The notes under the pieces are model-generated. The model ran no database searches and was not told the DNA's origin. It saw only the letters and a program-made list of their open reading frames with translations. DNA of 64,000 nucleotides from an uncultured bacterium (GTDB lineage Bacteria > Babelota > Babeliae > Babelales > Babelaceae). The DNA is taken from NCBI GenBank assembly GCA_963722385.1, contig CAVRKK010000002.1, forward strand, positions 96,001 through 160,000. The letters run 5' to 3'. Positions 3,943 to 64,000 of the stretch are shown here, piece after piece (the first letter of the stretch is position 1; every line of letters begins with the position of its first letter). Position numbers and translations under genes: made by a program.

Positions 3943-4045
3943 GTTTTCCTTTTTTCGCTATTAAGGCTCTTCAGATAAAATCGCATTAAGAGTATAGGCC
4001 AATAATAAGCTATGGTTCAAGAATTTTTTCCTGCAGGCTTTCTAT

Positions 4046-4102
4046 TTATTCAAATATCAAAGTCTTGATATTACGTGCGGTTAAAACCTTTTTTTCTAAA
4101 GC
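4046..4102 (-). pseudogene. Orphan copy of the 3' end of the FtsH-like gene (7032-9266)
   Basis: 4055-4096 matches 7041-7082 at 40/42 nt. Reads ALEKKVLTARNIKTLIFE* versus ALQEKKVLTARDIKTLIPK*. Confidence 0.85.
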
Positions 4103-6769: not shown

Positions 6770-7031
6770 GTAGTTCCTCGCAAGTATATTATTTATATTT
6801 ATTTATATTATATAAAATTATAGTAATAAAGGTCAAGATTGCTTATTATGCGCAATAGATGCTTTTGCAAACTTTTAAGCATGTAATACAGCCTAACAAG
6901 GCATAGGCCTCTTGCCTCTTTTTATGCGAATCTGTTATTTATTATCGCTAGTTTTGCAAGAAAATGATTATAGAGAATTGAATGAATCTTAAGCAGCAAA
7001 TATTCGTTTATTCCAATAAGCACGTCCTTCT

Positions 7032-9266
7032 TCATTTAGGTATCAAAGTCTTGATATCACGTGCTGTTAAAACCTTTTTTTCTTGTAAGGCACTGGCTAA
7101 TAGTGCCAGGGTACTTTTATGATTTAAGAGGAGCTGCTTGGTCTCTGCTTTGAGCATATTGATCATGGTATCAAGTTTTTCTTGAGACTTGCTGAACAAA
7201 GAGCATTGGTCCGAAGTCCTCTGATCGTCATGACTATTGGTACATTTACGTTTGAGCGCGTCAAAATAGATTTTGGCATGCTCGAGTGCTCTTTTTTCAT
7301 CATCGACGTGATATGCTGCAATAGAATCATGCACGAGAATATCTTCAGCAAGAGGACCCGCAAAAAGTACTTGGGCAAGCTTTTTATGACCTTCAATGTT
7401 TATCGACTCCCGTTCCTGGCTAGGTCCAAATTTTACGATTTTCCCACATTTATTATCATCTTTTTCCTTGATCGAAAGCTTGCCAAGGGTAACAAACTCA
7501 AATTCGAAAGGTGACTTTAGCACATGGTGTACTAAGACTTGGCCAGCAAGATAAGCAGCAATAAGTTTCTGATGATCTTGGGGAAGATCACAGTCTCCTA
7601 TAATAGCGTGAGTTAACAAATTGATCTGTTCCTGGATTCGCTCATTCAATGTTTTTCGTTCAATTTTGCGAAGAGCATTTCTAATAATTTCTTCGAGCTG
7701 TGCATAATTAAGGCCCTCGGTTTGTTGTGCAAAGGACTTAACATGGATTTCGTCGAGCGTAAGTTTATATTTATCAGTAATCTCTCGTTTAAAAAAGAGG
7801 TAGCGCTGCTTATAGTTGGGTAACGTAAACGATATTTCTTTGGTAAAAAGATTCCTTAAGTCATCATCAACGCGCAAGGCCTCAACGGTCGACCCGATGA
7901 TAAAGACGTGAATGCTTGGGTAATTTTTGAGCTCATCCTCAATGTGCTGAAAGTTTCTAAAAATTGCTTTCCCTTTTTTGGGTTCATAGAGATGAAGGTC
8001 ATCAATATACAAAATGCTCGGCTCGTAAAACTTTGCTTCTTTATAAGCCTCAAGTAATCCAGTCTCACTAAGGAGGTCAGCTAATTTAACCTCTATAAAG
8101 CGTAAGCGAGTATTGTCATGGGCTATCTTATAATTTTTATTGATCGTGCCAGCGAGTGCGCGTGCGATAAGCGATTTTCCCGTTTTGGGAGGGCCAGAAA
8201 AAAGAATGAGTTTATTGGGCGTTTGATGCCGTAAATCAAACATCTCGGGGTTGGTTAGGTATTCTACAACATCTGAGAGTTGTTTCTTTTGTTCTTCAAA
8301 GCCGATTGTTGCTGGATCATCAAAGGTAACATCCTCGATAACTTTATACTTTTCGGGAGGTGGCACTTTTCTTTGCAGGGACAGCCAAGAAGCGTGGAGC
8401 CACTCAACGAGGTTATCCCAGGGGCGTGCTATTCCGAATTGATTGATAATGGTTTTTGGTACCGTCAAAAGGTTATCAAGTAAAAAGCGCAACATGTCCA
8501 AGGTGAAGTACGTTATACCAGCAAGAGATATAAAGCCTGCAGGCGACCATTCGAGGAGTGGGGTCCTGCCGTGTAGTCGAGCCGCAATACCTTTAATCTG
8601 AGCGGGATTCTCATGATAGAGGCGATATAAAGCGAGAGGCACAACGGCGCTTAAAAGAGGAGGCATATATGTTTTTAATGAGTTAAGAGCAGAATCGAGC
8701 AACCGAAAGAACTTTTGAGAAGCTGTTAAGTGCATGAGTTCACTTATGATATCGTCAAATTGATCCTCGAATTGGTCCATCTTGTCGTTGGTTTCATGGA
8801 GCAAGGCGATGCTGGATTTACAGGAAGGGCTTGTTATAAGCGGTGCTTCTATGAACGAGTGCCGCATCATTTCTGCTACATAGCCAATAAAGAAATTAAG
8901 ATCATAGAGCGTGAAATAAAGCTTATCGCGTTGCTCGGGGAGAGAATCGCGCGTTGTGCGCAATGCCCGCTGCGTCGCTGCGATCCACTCTTGGACCTCT
9001 TGCGAACCGCCAGGGCCTCTTTCCACCGTATACGTCTTATTTTGAATATGGTGTGCTAACATTGCTAATCGTTCAATGAGCCGCTGGATAATATGCTGAA
9101 TTTGATGAACTTCCTCAAGTGAAAATTGCCCCTCAGGATGGGGACACCGCTGCTTCGGCCGTTCGATGGTAAAAAGCGGCTGGGCCTGTTGAGCAAGAGA
9201 TAATTCAGCAATGCCAAATATGGCGCAGCATGCGAGAAAGCGACCAAGGGAAAAAATAATACTCAT
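7032..9266 (-). CDS. FtsH-like AAA+ ATPase with degenerate M41 protease domain
   Basis: VTFDD..IGFEEQK, Walker A GPPKTGKS, ARALAG, altered Walker B (ILYIDDLH). The HExxH position reads YLAGQ. Confidence 0.8.
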   Translation of the reverse strand: MSIIFSLGRFLACCAIFGIAELSLAQQAQPLFTIERPKQRCPHPEGQFSLEEVHQIQHIIQRLIERLAMLAHHIQNKTYTVERGPGGSQEVQEWIAATQRALRTTRDSLPEQRDKLYFTLYDLNFFIGYVAEMMRHSFIEAPLITSPSCKSSIALLHETNDKMDQFEDQFDDIISELMHLTASQKFFRLLDSALNSLKTYMPPLLSAVVPLALYRLYHENPAQIKGIAARLHGRTPLLEWSPAGFISLAGITYFTLDMLRFLLDNLLTVPKTIINQFGIARPWDNLVEWLHASWLSLQRKVPPPEKYKVIEDVTFDDPATIGFEEQKKQLSDVVEYLTNPEMFDLRHQTPNKLILFSGPPKTGKSLIARALAGTINKNYKIAHDNTRLRFIEVKLADLLSETGLLEAYKEAKFYEPSILYIDDLHLYEPKKGKAIFRNFQHIEDELKNYPSIHVFIIGSTVEALRVDDDLRNLFTKEISFTLPNYKQRYLFFKREITDKYKLTLDEIHVKSFAQQTEGLNYAQLEEIIRNALRKIERKTLNERIQEQINLLTHAIIGDCDLPQDHQKLIAAYLAGQVLVHHVLKSPFEFEFVTLGKLSIKEKDDNKCGKIVKFGPSQERESINIEGHKKLAQVLFAGPLAEDILVHDSIAAYHVDDEKRALEHAKIYFDALKRKCTNSHDDQRTSDQCSLFSKSQEKLDTMINMLKAETKQLLLNHKSTLALLASALQEKKVLTARDIKTLIPK

Positions 9267-22796: not shown

Positions 22797-23276
22797 GCTT
22801 ACGCAGCGAGCGCGCCTGTGCGGCGAGCACACCTACGCGGTGGGCGGCATGGCGGCGGCCCTGCACCCATTGATTTTATGCTTCACTCTACTTGCTATAT
22901 CTTTTATCTCTTCTCGTCATAACCATGCGGGGCGCATGATTATGACAACCGCAATTTTCCTGACGGAAAATAGATTTTTATCATGGAGCTGAGCGACATG
23001 ATAATGGCGTTAGTTATCGTACGCTTTGGCGGACGATAACTACTCACCAAGCTTATAAGCATTAAGCATATTGCAACGGGATCCCAAAGGACATAGCGAT
23101 GCGGAGTAGCGCAACGCTTGTCCGTAGCAGCTTTTTGTAAAAAAAGCGATCAGCGGAGGCGGGACCCCCTTTGGCGCTCGCCGCGCAGGCGATTCGATTC
23201 AATTCAATTCAATTCGCTCTGCTACGTCAGCCCCGCCCGACTTCGCCGAGGCTAGGCCGGCCAAGCAGCGATTCAA
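22797..23276 (-). repeat. Structured intergenic element, copy A (with nested REP-like modules)
   Basis: Colinear with 28659-29004 (inverted) and 30269-30675. Inverted termini 22813-22830 / 23174-23191. Serial hairpins. Strand inferred from G.U pairs. Confidence 0.9.
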
Positions 23277-28627: not shown

Positions 28628-28658
28628 ACACGCTACATTATGCCAGGAATTTGAGTGT

Positions 28659-29004
28659 GAATTCAATTGAATCGAATTGAATCGCCTGCGCGGCTGGCGG
28701 TTAAGGGACATCGTCCCTTAACAATCCCGATGCAATATGCTTATAAGCTTGGTGAGTAGTTGTCGTCCGCAAAAGCGTACGACAACTAATGCCATTATCA
28801 TGTGCGCTGCGCTCCATGATAAAAACATATCTTCCGTGAGAAAGATTGCGGTAGCTCTAAGCATGCGCGGCGCATGGTTATAGCATTCACACGAGTTACA
28901 AAATATAGCATACAGTAAGAAATAAAATCAATGGGTGCAGGGCCGCCGCCATGCCGCCCACTGCGTAAGTGTGCTCGCCGCATAGGCGCGCCTGCTGCGC
29001 AAGC
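28659..29004 (+). repeat. Structured intergenic element, copy B
   Basis: Near-identical reverse complement of the core of copy C. Termini cgcctgcgcggc (28683) and gccgcataggcg (ending 28988). Confidence 0.9.
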
Positions 29005-29020
29005 ACCGGAGGAAACAAGA

Positions 29021-29725
29021 ATGCTTAAAAAAACTTTACTTACCCTCGCGATTATTACTCATATACCTGCTTACGGGCAACAGCTTTATACTGAATCTGA
29101 ATGCGAATCCTTAAGCAGCTACGTGCTTGATGCCATCAAAAAAAATCATGCAGCCGTGGTTAAAGACCTTACGTCTCATTTACTAAAATGCTCGAAACTT
29201 GACCGCTTAAAGCGCGGCGTAGATTTCATAGATACTAATGCGGGACTTCTTGCTGCTTACGTTCTTGCAACTATCGGCGCAAACTTAGACAATGCCCTCC
29301 CGGCTGCAATATACTGGCACAATATACCGACCGCAAAATACCTGCTTGAAAATGGCGCCTGTGTTAACGGCTTAATTGACGTAGCTCCTGATATGTCCCC
29401 AGAGGAGCTGATCCCGCTCATGCATTACGCTATTCAGAAGGGCTATAGCGAAGAAGTTGAACTGTTAGTGCGTTACGGGTATGACCTGAATAGCTTTTTT
29501 GGGGATATGACGCCGCTTATGACTGCAGCATGGTATGGCCAAAACGACATCGTGAAAATTCTACTCGAACGCGGGGCTGACGCGCGAATACGCAATAAGG
29601 ACGAGTACACCGCCCTGGATTATGCCTTTAGATGGCCAAGCGCCTTAGGCTGGTCATGCCTTAACCCAGCTACTCTTAGATTACTCGAGCAAGCAACTGC
29701 CAACCAAGAGGGCTGTCGTTTTTAA
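29021..29725 (+). CDS. Secreted ankyrin-repeat protein
   Basis: GGAGG RBS; MLKK signal peptide; TPLMTAAWYG and GADARIRNKDEYTALDYA. Confidence 0.9.
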   Translation: MLKKTLLTLAIITHIPAYGQQLYTESECESLSSYVLDAIKKNHAAVVKDLTSHLLKCSKLDRLKRGVDFIDTNAGLLAAYVLATIGANLDNALPAAIYWHNIPTAKYLLENGACVNGLIDVAPDMSPEELIPLMHYAIQKGYSEEVELLVRYGYDLNSFFGDMTPLMTAAWYGQNDIVKILLERGADARIRNKDEYTALDYAFRWPSALGWSCLNPATLRLLEQATANQEGCRF

Positions 29726-30112: not shown

Positions 30113-30268
30113 AAAGCCCCTTGTCCCATTATGCCCTGTGATCATCTTAATTGATTGCTGTTCAAATATGCAATAATATTGTTAGACTGAATTAATAATT
30201 AATTACTTATTGCGTTTATTGAACATGTGCTTGAAATGGCCATAAATTTTGCACGTGCTCCTACGCAG

Positions 30269-30675
30269 CCGACTTCGCCAAGACCACGACGGGAACGCTT
30301 ACGCAGCGGGCGGCATGGTCGCGGCGGCCCTGCACCCATTGATTTTATTTCTTGCTGTATATGCTCATTTTTGTAACTTGTGTGAATGCTCTAACCATGC
30401 GCGACGCATGCTTAGAGCTACCGCAATCTTCCTCACGGAAGATATGATTTTATCATGGAGCTTAGCGACATGATAATGGCATTAGTTGTCGTACGCTTTT
30501 GCGGACGACAACTACTCACCAAGCTTATAAGCATATTGCATCGGGATTGTTAAGGGACGATGTCCCTTAACCGCCAGCCGCGCAGGCGATTCGATTCAAT
30601 TCAATTCGCTCTGCTACGTCAGTCCGCGCCCGACTTCGCCGCGGCTACGTCGGCCAAGCAGGCGATTCAATTCGC
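30269..30675 (-). repeat. Structured intergenic element, copy C (REP-like units at both ends)
   Basis: Colinear with copy A. One terminal repeat is lost by a deletion between short direct repeats. Confidence 0.9.
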
Positions 30676-42891: not shown

Positions 42892-42982
42892 TAAATCTCT
42901 ACGAAAAAAGCCCCGCTTGAGCCACCTATTGCCGTTGGGGAAGCAAAAATTCGCCTCGCCATCCCAGCTGTAAAGTCAGCTT
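42892..42982 (-). pseudogene. Orphan diverged copy of the 3' end of the ankyrin gene 44865-46541
   Basis: Aligns to 44858-44947. Reads ADFTAGMARRIFASPTAIGGSSG versus ADFTARMARRIFAPQTAIGGSSG. Confidence 0.9.
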
Positions 42983-44864: not shown

Positions 44865-46541
44865 CTACGGAAGAACTCCGCTTGAGCCCCCAATTGCCGT
44901 TTGAGGAGCAAAAATTCGCCTCGCCATCCTAGCGGTAAAATCAGCTTCTGGCTGTGCCTGGTACATGACCTGCTGCTGCAACTCAACAGGCAAGCTTCTT
45001 AATAGGTTATGATCACTATTTTGTTGGAGCAAGAGTCGCGTATTGCGCCGCAGAATAATATGCTGAAGCAATCTTTTTCTAGCGCGTCCATACCATGTTC
45101 GCAGCTCACGATTAAGGCGCAGATCTCGTAATGCCCTTGTTACATGTAACCCAGCACGGTTAAGATCAAGGCTGAAGTTAAAATATACCCTGTCCTGAAA
45201 AAGAATATAATCGAAAACAGCAGCGTGGCCTCCTATGGTTGCTTCGTATAATGCTTGGTTAAAAGCGGCACATAGGCGGTCATCACTAAGCCAACCTGCG
45301 AGAACACGACGAAGAAGCTTGAGAACAAGCATATGCTCCAATCGTGCAGCACGTACGATTGCCTGATAGAGCGCGTTGCTGCCAAGCTCAGGAGCTAAAA
45401 GCGCCGATGCTAGAATATAATCAACAACATCGACATGCCCCTGGGCAACCGCCCTTAGAAACGCTCGCTCAATTACCCGCCCAAACGCGCTATCGTCGGT
45501 ATCAAGCGCGGGCAATAAAAGCCGAACAAGCTCAAGATTACCAATCCCCGCGGCAGCTATAAACCCATCCTGAATGGCATGTTGGTCGGCAACACGATTT
45601 AAGAGTGCTTCCACAACGGCAATTCGCGCTTGACCACAAGCAAGGCGTAGTGCTTCGCAGAGAAGATCGCATGAACCATCCTGCACCAATTGATCAATCA
45701 GCTCGATTGCCTGCTGATCATCAGCGAGCAGTAAGGCACGCCGCATGGGGTGCGATGCTATAAAAGTGAAGATCTGAGGATAATTATTAAGATCACCCGC
45801 TATCCTGCCACCATTCATAAAGAACCAGAGAATCATGGCCTTTTGTGTGGGGTATGACAGTATGCTAATGGTCGTTAAACACGTGCTCGTGGCTGGTATA
45901 ACGGGATGCGCACCATGCTCTAATAACCAGTTGACAAATTCGCAACCAATAGCTGCGGTATTAATCGGGTCGGTACCAGAAGCATTACGCACCGTTTCTG
46001 CCAAGAGTTCGTAAAGGTGGGGATATGCTCTTTGGAGCAGCGCCTTCCATTGCTGTTGTTCGGCAACAATTTTTTGGTTGAGCTTATAGAAATTAAGCCA
46101 GGTTCGGCCCTCATTATAATCACAGAAAAAAGTCTTGCCATAATCCGCATCAGCAAGCGCTCTGCCAAAAATTGTCTCTCCCGTATCAGACAAACAGTTA
46201 ATATTTGCACCTGATTCTATCATGAACAACAAGGAAGCAAAGTCGCCCCTACCCAAGAACCGAATGACTGCCAATTGAGCCAACGGCAACTTCCCATAAG
46301 TTATATCAAGATGCGCCCCCCTGCTCAATTGATGGCCAACGGCATCAAGATCAGATTGCAGTAATGCATCATGCACTAACCGGTAAAAACGTTTTTTTGC
46401 AAGCCGCTGCCTCTTGCGAGCAGGTGTTTTATTAGGCAAAGAGGTATCATCTGCCTTCCTCTTGTCCTCCATGCCAGACACGCCTGGAGAAAAAATTAAA
46501 AAAAACAGCATGAAGGCAAAAAAGATTTTTCTGTTTTCCAT
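44865..46541 (-). CDS. Secreted ankyrin-repeat protein with basic NLS-like patch and C-terminal F-box-like motif
   Basis: Signal peptide ending VSGME; PARKRQRLAKKR; ankyrin-like repeats (AAAGIGNLELVRLLL, AVAQGHVDVVDYIL); LLRSLPVELQQQVM. Confidence 0.85.
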   Translation of the reverse strand: MENRKIFFAFMLFFLIFSPGVSGMEDKRKADDTSLPNKTPARKRQRLAKKRFYRLVHDALLQSDLDAVGHQLSRGAHLDITYGKLPLAQLAVIRFLGRGDFASLLFMIESGANINCLSDTGETIFGRALADADYGKTFFCDYNEGRTWLNFYKLNQKIVAEQQQWKALLQRAYPHLYELLAETVRNASGTDPINTAAIGCEFVNWLLEHGAHPVIPATSTCLTTISILSYPTQKAMILWFFMNGGRIAGDLNNYPQIFTFIASHPMRRALLLADDQQAIELIDQLVQDGSCDLLCEALRLACGQARIAVVEALLNRVADQHAIQDGFIAAAGIGNLELVRLLLPALDTDDSAFGRVIERAFLRAVAQGHVDVVDYILASALLAPELGSNALYQAIVRAARLEHMLVLKLLRRVLAGWLSDDRLCAAFNQALYEATIGGHAAVFDYILFQDRVYFNFSLDLNRAGLHVTRALRDLRLNRELRTWYGRARKRLLQHIILRRNTRLLLQQNSDHNLLRSLPVELQQQVMYQAQPEADFTARMARRIFAPQTAIGGSSGVLP

Positions 46542-46730: not shown

Positions 46731-47196
46731 AAATAAATAGAATAGAATAATATCCGCCTACGCGGCGAGCGGCTAAGGGACATCCCGCCTCCGCTGATCG
46801 CTTTTTTTACAAAAAGCTGCTGCGGACATAGCGATGCGCTACTACGCATCGCTATGTCCGCAGCAATCCTGATGCAACATGCTTAATGCCTATAAGCTCG
46901 GTGAGTAGTTATCGTAGGCTTTGCGTGCGATAACTTATGCCATTTATCAGGTACGCAGCGCCATGAGCAGATAATGCGCCCTGCTCATCGGATAAGAGGC
47001 GAAGTAATAATGGTTTACTTGGGGGTAGCGAGCGAGGATATTAATTGCCAAAGTCTAATTGAAATCGCTTCAACATAACTTATCATATAAAATAACTAAC
47101 TATTTTTTTGAATAACTTATGAAGGGAATGCGCCTACGCGGCGGCCGCCGCCCTGCCGCTCGACGCGCAGTCGCGCCCGCCGCGTAGGCGCCCGCT
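46731..47196 (+). repeat. Structured intergenic element, copy D (diverged)
   Basis: Termini 46755-46770 / 47175-47190 (15/16 complementary). Shares caatcc.gatgcaa...tataagct.ggtgagtagttatcgt with the other copies and shares the nested insert of copy A. Confidence 0.85.
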
Positions 47197-63829: not shown

Positions 63830-64000
63830 ATTTTTCTCCGGCAGGAGAAATGCTAAAGTGCCTAGCCATGTGCCCCACATGGGTATGGCATTCGTAGGTA
63901 TTGAGCTACAGCAAGATAAAGCACTTAAACAAAAGAACCATTACAATGGGTGCAGGGCCGCTGCCCTGCTGCTCGCCGCATGGGCGCGCCCGCTGCGCAA
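63830..64000 (+). repeat. Structured intergenic element, copy E (diverged 3' half, reaches window end)
   Basis: caatgggtgcagggccgc...gctcgccgcatgggcgcgcc.gctgcgcaa matches the 3' end of copy B. It is preceded by two hairpins in the same order with compensatory changes. Confidence 0.8.

What the first reader, a model, noticed from the sequence alone, without database searches (positions are those of the whole stretch)
22916..23042. Compensatory base changes and G.U asymmetry show selection on structure and define a sense strand
Seen, hairpin 1 outer stem: gtcataa/ttatgac in A (22916-22946) versus gctctaa/ttagagc in C (30388-30418), three consecutive pairs swapped. Its inner stem catgcg/cgcatg becomes catgtg/cacatg in E (63866-63882). 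Hairpin 2: attttcc/ggaaaat (A 22954-22971), atcttcc/ggaagat (C 30426-30443), tttctcc/ggagaaa (E 63833-63850), always with a 4-nt G-N-N-A loop in the B orientation (GTCA, GTGA, GGCA). Hairpin 3: tagttAtcgt/acgaTaacta (A 23011-23042) versus tagttGtcgt/acgaCaacta (B, C). Several mismatches become G.U pairs only in the B+/D+/E+ orientation. Inference: the functional molecule is single-stranded, with sense A-, B+, C-, D+, E+.
Basis: seen in the sequence. Interest (0 to 1): 0.85.

Follow-up and report, generated by a model that had tools for sequence, protein, structure and literature searches.

The report
Two-ended DNA hairpin repeat family
The paired base changes are real, but they belong to a scattered, two-ended DNA repeat whose hairpins repair and flip themselves during copying, not to an RNA with one working strand; its end hairpin turns up in many bacterial phyla and partly resembles a known replication-stalling element of E. 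coli.

Summary
The stems and swaps quoted are all present. The five copies belong to a family of about 50 intergenic loci in this 1.6-Mb genome, which the scan had already noted on other pieces of it. Covariation survives a tree-aware test: 15 same-branch double changes against 2.0 +/- 1.3. The G.U asymmetry does not: new mismatches split 6:6 between strands. The same ~45-nt module sits at both ends on opposite strands, G-A-capped loops switch strand mid-element, and loops of hairpins 1 and 3 occur reverse-complemented together with repaired stems, the mark of DNA template switching. Hairpin 2 does keep one polarity, but its loops are DNA-type (GNYA 36 of 40, three GNA triloops), not RNA GNRA. 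In a sister species the cassette lies in both orientations (10:6) inside IS5-type ends. The end module recurs in several other phyla and shares its first hairpin with E. coli RRS/TRIP1, though a model search does not support homology. Verdict: structured DNA repeat, REPIN/BIME-like, mobiliser not found.

The parts
22797..23215 (.). Copy A, whole two-ended element between topA and a 238-aa ORF; a decayed extra end follows at 23231-23275
22797..22872 (-). A left end: end module (GGGT + GC-rich hairpin + mini-hairpin with a G-x-x-x-A loop) and further mini-hairpins, read on the minus strand
   Evidence: model R1 hit 22827-22872, 46.3 bits
22916..22946 (.). A hairpin 1; free 3-nt loop, found in both orientations across copies
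22954..22971 (-). A hairpin 2; C-G-closed GTCA loop on the minus strand (DNA-type cGNNAg)
22978..23004 (+).
23011..23042 (.). A hairpin 3; inner loop inverted in 2 of 25 copies
23089..23170 (+). A optional module of two hairpins, shared with D (89% over 57 nt) and absent from B and C
23157..23194 (+). A right end module, same kind as the left end but on the plus strand
   Evidence: model R1 hit, 25.3 bits
28654..29004 (.). Copy B, inverted relative to A; end modules at 28929-28974 (+) and 28680-28732 (-); its hairpin 2 has a wobble only on the strand opposite to the proposed sense
30263..30674 (.). Copy C, upstream of gyrB; end modules at 30293-30341 (-) and 30539-30591 (+)
46740..47192 (.). 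Copy D, composite: short inverted pair of end hairpins (47131-47190), unrelated AT-rich insert in place of hairpins 1-2, hairpin 3 with inverted loop, optional module, end module at 46752-46796 (-)
63833..64000 (.). Copy E, one-ended: hairpin 2 (63833-63850), hairpin 1 variant (about 63860-63890), end module 63944-63989 (+); runs about 60 nt past the window end

Best explanation
A non-coding, modular, two-ended DNA repeat that works like a REPIN/BIME. One ~45-nt hairpin module stands at each end in inverted orientation, and the interior is a shuffled set of hairpins. The structured form that matters is single-stranded DNA, on either strand. Shown: stems stay paired, loops invert, modules are exchanged, the ends are twofold symmetric. 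Inferred: (1) hairpins extrude when DNA is unwound at the fork, and template switching copies one arm onto the other, which gives block swaps and double changes in one step; (2) recombination and gene conversion between copies shuffle modules; (3) the conserved end module and the G-A-capped loops (cGNAg, cGNNAg) are kept because a trans-acting DNA-processing enzyme recognises the folded ends and spreads the element. The enzyme is not identified; an HUH/Y1-type enzyme is my guess by analogy with REP systems. In the sister species the cassette also hitch-hikes inside an IS5-type MITE shell.
For: Same module at both ends on opposite strands in A, B, C, D. C-closed G(N1-3)A mini-hairpins in 22 full copies, B strand vs A strand: left end 56 vs 35, hairpins 1-2 30 vs 4, hairpins 2.5-3 0 vs 13, right end 14 vs 32. 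All 4 copies with a reverse-complemented hairpin-1 loop also have the junction mismatch repaired, against 3 of 38 others (Fisher p 3e-4); PMC8794818 (passages) names this pattern as the strongest sign of template switching and finds it very rare in rRNA. Transversion double changes (A-T to C-G, T-A to G-C) occur, which cannot pass through G.U. Hairpin-2 loops: GNYA 36 and GNRA 4 of 40 tetraloops, plus GCA, GAA, GGA triloops, C-G-closed in 44 of 45; d(GNA) with C:G closure is a very stable DNA loop (PMC3201870 abstract and passages, and the title of Nakano 2002 in its reference list). DNA fold energy is equal on both strands (-96.0/-96.0 for A; -34.8/-34.6). No fixed orientation to neighbouring genes (18/14/11/9 in the four classes, crude ORF calls). 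Patchy spread: 5 of 121 phylum genomes have a model hit and only this one has many. Sister genome G001: interior lies 10:6 in either orientation between outer ends X and Y; end Y matches one site only in G000, the left end of an IS5-family element (22 of 26 nt).
Against: No mobiliser found: no recurring transposase, nuclease or reverse transcriptase among 128 neighbouring ORFs, no Y1 enzyme in G001, G070, G071, no target duplication above chance in 30 two-ended G000 copies. Hairpin 2 never inverts (0 of 45) and the hairpin 1-2 block favours one strand, which a purely symmetric picture does not predict. The inverted-loop class was defined after seeing the data, and copies are not independent. 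Folding in vivo is not shown. The copies are mosaics, so the tree used is approximate and was built from the same columns.
Confidence: 0.6

Rival explanations
1. Neutral palindromes: template switching and gene conversion alone create all the covariation, nothing selects the folds, and the conserved motifs only reflect recent expansion.
For: Loop inversion with arm repair; mismatch events symmetric, with as many non-wobble mismatches as either wobble class (6:6:6); B and C 98.6% identical in one half and 89.8% in the other.
Against: The end module keeps sequence and pairing across phyla (97.4% of cells paired, 5 pairs with changes on both sides, 0 of 500 shuffles; the set was picked by a pattern, so the sequence conservation is partly circular). 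Hairpin-2 loop ends change 0 and 2 times on the tree against 6-11 for hairpin-1 loop positions, and G...A survives a change of loop length. G001 keeps the order of hairpins with wholly different stems.
Confidence: 0.15
2. RRS-like chromosomal elements: the copies fold on the lagging-strand template, stall Okazaki-fragment synthesis and leave gaps, as E. coli RRS does; the gaps feed RecA-driven conversion and so maintain and spread the family without a dedicated enzyme.
For: RRS ends in the same GGGTGCAG-stem-CTGC hairpin; of 19 pattern matches in E. coli K-12 only the two RRS copies have a perfect inner stem; 18 of 18 nt identical to the module in L108. The G4-free RRS strand also blocks in about 66% of encounters (PMC13308219, figure legend). 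The A strand is the lagging-strand template in 33 of 50 G000 copies (p 0.033).
Against: RRS lacks the module's second hairpin, scores 14-16 bits with model R1 and is not found in the whole-genome search. G4Hunter best 2.3 for RRS, 0 of 46 copies reach 2. No replichore bias in G001 (about half of 16) or in three Binatia genomes (19 of 40 by hand, taking dnaA as origin). About 50 scattered copies against two placed symmetrically. The link was found by a motif search of papers, so it is partly post hoc.
Confidence: 0.15
3. One reading: a structured RNA (ribozyme, intron remnant or sRNA) read on the B strand, with selection on RNA pairing.
For: Real covariation; fixed G...A loop of hairpin 2 on the B strand; RNA energy favours B in 35 of 46 whole copies (mean 5.6 kcal/mol, about 3%); the two wobbles that spread to many copies are both G.U on B.
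Against: Event-level asymmetry absent; loops are not GNRA; loop and whole-interior inversions are tolerated; polarity flips; no Rfam match for the window at gathering score apart from a tRNA, nor at E <= 1 beyond one chance hit for 20 other copies; promoter and terminator counts unremarkable.
Confidence: 0.1

Closest known systems
REP/BIME/REPIN elements with RAYT, and TIRtron TIR families (PMC3733652, abstract, first part and passages; bioRxiv 10.1101/2021.07.10.451892, passages)
   Same: Intergenic palindromic units found singly, in tandem or as inverted doublets with structured spacers; mosaic clusters; lineage-specific expansion; slight excess between convergent genes.
   Different: No terminal GTAG or CGTC tag; no Y1 gene flanked by the module; longer (293-507 bp) with many interior hairpins; the end module is shared across distant phyla. 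The TIRtron motif GGGGWSAS fits the Binatia loop but not the module in this genome (noted, not tested).
Bacterial MITEs, here IS5-family derived (IS427-like group assignment is recalled, not tested)
   Same: In G001 the unit has imperfect outer repeats ending in CTAG that match an IS5-family element of G000 (DUF4096 + DDE_Tnp_1).
   Different: G000 copies, including the five in the window, lack that shell and show no target duplication; the cassette lies in both orientations in the shell, so it is cargo or an invertible insert.
E. coli RRS / TRIP1 (PMC10287960, PMC11194060 preprint version, PMC13308219, PMC10888264; passages, one discussion section, one supplement legend)
   Same: GC-rich multi-hairpin intergenic repeat of similar size; same GGGTGCAG-stem-CTGC end hairpin; acts as folded single-stranded DNA; copies recombine.
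   Different: No strong G4; two-ended; no fixed chromosomal position or strand; no similarity outside the end hairpin; RRS was reported from enterobacteria only in what I read.
Integron attC sites and candidate ssDNA motifs such as DUF1874, GEBRO (PMC5737381, passages)
   Same: Covarying structures that may act as single-stranded DNA; that paper states that covariation cannot tell ssDNA from RNA.
   Different: Not in cassette arrays, not plasmid- or virus-borne (0 viral contigs; only 3 weak plasmid hits).

Membership tests
Structured RNA with one sense strand | Covariation above a phylogeny-aware null | tested here: met
   15 vs 2.0 +/- 1.3, 0 of 2000
Structured RNA with one sense strand | Excess of G.U over A.C on one strand, counted as events | tested here: not met
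   6:6; 6:2 and 1:4 in other helices and G001
Structured RNA with one sense strand | RNA-type loops (GNRA, UNCG, CUUG) with one polarity along the molecule | tested here: not met
   GNRA 4 of 40; polarity flips; loops invert
Structured RNA with one sense strand | A discrete transcript | not testable with these tools
   no RNA holder listed
REP/REPIN-RAYT | Inverted doublets of a short palindromic unit, intergenic, multicopy | tested here: met
   51 of 52 loci outside ORFs of 200 aa or more
REP/REPIN-RAYT | Terminal GTAG/GTGG (or CGTC) tag before the palindrome | tested here: not met
   GTAG occurs only inside a loop; end alignment
REP/REPIN-RAYT | RAYT gene flanked by the repeat in the same genome | tested here: not met
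   G000 Y1 genes are IS200-like with their own ends; none in G001, G070, G071; no module beside those of G064, G068
MITE (IS5-derived) | Terminal repeats matching a transposase-bearing IS | tested here: inconclusive
   met for the G001 shell; not met for the G000 copies
MITE (IS5-derived) | Target-site duplication | tested here: not met
   G000: 4, 1, 1 of 30 at 3, 4, 5 nt, as in shuffles; CTAG at both ends is seen in some G001 copies
RRS/TRIP1 | Sequence homology over the 222-bp element | tested here: not met
   only 15-18 nt matches at the end hairpin; 14-16 bits, absent from the genome-wide list
RRS/TRIP1 | G4-forming strand on the lagging-strand template | tested here: not met
   G4Hunter below 2 in 46 of 46; weak or no replichore bias
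RRS/TRIP1 | Triggers post-replication gaps | not testable with these tools
   needs ssGap-seq or polymerase-stop assay
Hammerhead ribozyme | CUGAUGA, stem II, GAAA, stem III, cleavage triplet | tested here: not met
   a long subfamily has CTGATGAG but no GAAA after the stem; no Rfam ribozyme hit

The most novel reading that the evidence does not exclude
The end module marks an undescribed, cross-phylum class of DNA elements that act by folding on the unwound template. They stall lagging-strand synthesis, and the resulting gaps drive the template switching and gene conversion that keep their stems perfect and copy them about, with no transposase of their own. E. coli RRS/TRIP1 would be a domesticated member, which would give that element an origin and extend programmed gap formation far beyond enterobacteria.
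Probability: 0.15. Interest if true: 0.8.

Novelty: new variant of a known kind. Interest (0 to 1): 0.4.

Why it matters
It is a clean case in which strong covariation does not mean RNA: event counts, loop chemistry and loop inversions point to DNA. The end module links repeats in several phyla that I did not find described (two motif searches of the paper library, 30 rows listed of 43 and of 39; one search for repeats in this phylum), has no known mobiliser, and resembles the working end of E. coli RRS. That makes two open questions testable: what spreads REP-like repeats that lack a RAYT, and where RRS came from.

Tried and rejected
Rfam: window at gathering score gives only a tRNA; copy A at E <= 5 gives two chance hits; 12 and 20 other loci give nothing real. 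Hammerhead idea rejected. IS200 tnpA, TnpB, GIY-YIG and reverse-transcriptase loci of G000: the tnpA and TnpB loci I read have their own ends; the GIY-YIG and RT loci were not read further. Autonomous partner: inverted pairs in other phyla enclose housekeeping genes or nothing; neighbour scan of 128 ORFs from 70 of 80 loci gives 1 HNH, 1 IS1595 zinc ribbon, 2 RmuC, 1 Mu portal and otherwise ordinary genes. Viral contigs: 0. Metagenome pattern for hairpins 1-2: 0; a looser pattern gave 85 stretches, of which 4 (two near-identical pairs) are real inverted doublets. Expression: no RNA holder listed. Contigs of four DNA runs gave only fragmentary cover and joints between repeat copies, not usable for empty sites. 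A three-way junction closing hairpins 2 and 2.5 appears in A's fold but is broken in B and C, so I do not claim it. Replichore bias: nominal in G000 only. Target duplication: none. The alignment had wrong coordinates for four rows and was not used. Outputs were cut; the missing copies were reprinted.

Full report
Setting. The window is G000:C2:96001-160000 of a 1.60-Mb, 43% GC, two-contig genome with housekeeping genes (topA, ppsA, gyrB, glmS) and ankyrin-repeat genes. Earlier scan notes call it Dependentiae; I did not test the taxonomy.

Observation. Every stem quoted is present at its coordinates. Iterated profile searches give 52 merged loci, about 50 elements; 51 of 52 avoid ORFs of 200 aa or more in a genome that is 73% such ORFs. 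Two-ended copies measure 293-507 bp between outermost hairpins (30 copies). Copies are mosaics: B and C are 98.6% identical on one side and 89.8% over hairpins 1-2, A shares an optional module with D, and several subfamilies swap the whole right half.

Covariation is real. On a tree of 41 of the 46 hairpin 1-2 copies (4 with shifted register and 1 truncated left out), 15 branches carry changes at both partners of a pair, 14 of them Watson-Crick to Watson-Crick; a null that keeps changes per branch and per column gives 2.0 +/- 1.3, maximum 8 in 2000. The tree is approximate because copies recombine and it was built from the same columns.

The G.U asymmetry is not. New single mismatches from a Watson-Crick pair split 6 G.T on the A strand, 6 G.T on the B strand and 6 neither. 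Distinct mismatch types in the other helices are 6 (A) to 2 (B), and in the sister genome G001 1 to 4. By copy count hairpins 1-2 give 40 (B) to 6 (A), but 35 of the 40 come from two inherited positions, and one of these is C.C in 8 copies. Copy B itself has a hairpin-2 pair that is a wobble only on the A strand. For copy A the whole-element energies are -167.5/-172.2 as RNA and -96.0/-96.0 as DNA; the 137-nt core gives -51.4/-53.7 and -34.8/-34.6.

The element is two-ended. A covariance model of the ~45-nt end module (42 sequences) hits both ends of A, B, C and D on opposite strands, and the single end of E. C-closed G(N1-3)A mini-hairpins lie mainly on the B strand in the left half (56:35 and 30:4) and on the A strand in the right half (13:0 and 32:14) of 22 full copies. 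So each end has its own working strand, read towards the outside.

Template switching leaves its mark. Hairpin-1 loops occur as reverse complements (GGG/CCC, TGG/CCA, GGA/TCC). All 4 copies with an inverted loop have the junction mismatch repaired, against 3 of 38 others (p 3e-4, class defined after seeing the data). Hairpin 3 has its inner part inverted in 2 of 25 copies, D among them, and both interior hairpins of G001 show loops in both orientations. PMC8794818 (passages) treats compensation plus loop inversion as the strongest sign of template switching and found it in only 6 of 9,931 cases in rRNA histories.

Hairpin 2 has a polarity, and it is DNA-like. Of 45 loops on the B strand, 40 are GNNA (GTCA 20, GTTA 13, GTGA 4, GCCA 2, GGCA 1), 3 are GNA triloops (GCA, GAA, GGA), 2 are ATNA; none is inverted and 44 are closed by C-G. 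Only 4 of 40 fit RNA GNRA. The third position changes 7 times on the tree, the last never. d(GNA) with a C:G closing pair is a very stable DNA loop (PMC3201870, abstract and passages), and d(cGNNAg) is named as a selected stable DNA tetraloop in a title in its reference list (that paper itself not seen). That the RNA triloop is much weaker is recalled. A shorter stem would also invert less often, so the absence of inversions is weaker evidence than it looks.

Relatives. G001 (same genus) has at least 16 copies with the same order of parts but different stems. There the cassette lies between two outer ends, X and Y, often ending in CTAG, in either orientation, 10:6. End Y matches a single site in G000 (22 of 26 nt), the left end of an IS5-family element; G001 has no DDE_Tnp_1, DUF4096 or Y1 hit (91% complete). 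The G000 copies lack this shell and show no target duplication. Multi-copy relatives of the end hairpin occur in G032 and G064; the model finds 5 of 121 phylum genomes, with one or two hits each outside G000. A pattern scan of the genome collection returns the module from Binatia, Planctomycetota, Clostridia, Chloroflexi and an Acidiferrales record, singly, in tandem arrays or as inverted doublets (capped, and the pattern fixes much of the sequence). No mobiliser recurs beside it.

RRS. A motif search of papers led to E. coli RRS, a 222-bp repeat that folds on the lagging-strand template and triggers gaps. The paper prints only the first arm; the genome shows that it continues into the same hairpin as the module, and these are the only 2 perfect stems among 19 pattern matches in K-12. 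Against homology: no second hairpin, 14-16 bits, not recovered genome-wide, no strong G4 in 46 copies, and no consistent replichore bias (33 of 50 in G000, p 0.033; about half of 16 in G001; 19 of 40 in three Binatia genomes). The papers and the legend of supplementary figure S25 place RRS in enterobacteria only; supplements of the other papers were not seen. The 5' half of RRS gives a below-threshold TwoAYGGAY match (31 bits against 43); this family gives none.

Conclusion. The best reading (0.6) is a two-ended DNA hairpin mosaic of the REPIN/BIME kind, kept paired by template switching, shuffled by recombination, and probably recognised as folded DNA by an enzyme not yet found. It fails the membership tests for REPIN-RAYT, for IS5 MITE (in this genome) and for RRS, so I file it as a new variant of a known kind. 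The scan had already reported the family in this genome as an ordinary mosaic repeat; new here are the event-level strand test, the DNA-type loops, the reversible nesting in an IS5 shell and the cross-phylum end module. Interest 0.4.

Noticed in passing
G000 C1:332016-332837 and C2:1-819: The two contigs overlap by about 820 bp at 98%, and GC skew has its minimum near C2:600 kb and maximum near C1:140 kb, so dnaA (C2:22 kb) lies about 580 kb from the skew-defined origin. G001 shows a similar mismatch between dnaA (1,293 kb) and its skew minimum (about 500 kb).
   Followed up: partly
G000 C2:750-800 kb: Reversed GC skew inside the right replichore, likely an inversion; family copies lie nearby at 728, 734, 741, 769 and 783 kb.
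   Followed up: no
G000 genome-wide: Many insertion sequences for a small genome: two near-identical IS200 tnpA, two TnpB elements, 19 DDE_Tnp_1 hits including a 1.25-kb family in six or more copies, and a reverse-transcriptase fragment.
   Followed up: partly
window 42906-42982 and 44871-44947; 4045-4097 and 7031-7083: Two unrelated two-copy repeats (77 nt at 86%, 53 nt at 89%) near gene ends.
   Followed up: no
window 23195-23220, 30587-30607, 28654-28680: A variable number of ATTCA/ATTCG pentamers follows the right end of many copies, and decayed extra ends lie just outside, as if copies insert next to older ones.
   Followed up: partly
window 28931-29725: The 264-aa ankyrin ORF appears to start inside copy B; the likely start is the ATG at about 29021 after a GGAGG site, so the overlap is probably an artefact.
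   Followed up: no
L303/L316 and L270/L284: Metagenome contigs with compact inverted doublets of the end module (about 110-130 bp) between ordinary genes.
   Followed up: no
L080, L081, L111, L138 (Clostridiaceae): The end module forms head-to-tail arrays with a period of about 41 nt.
   Followed up: no
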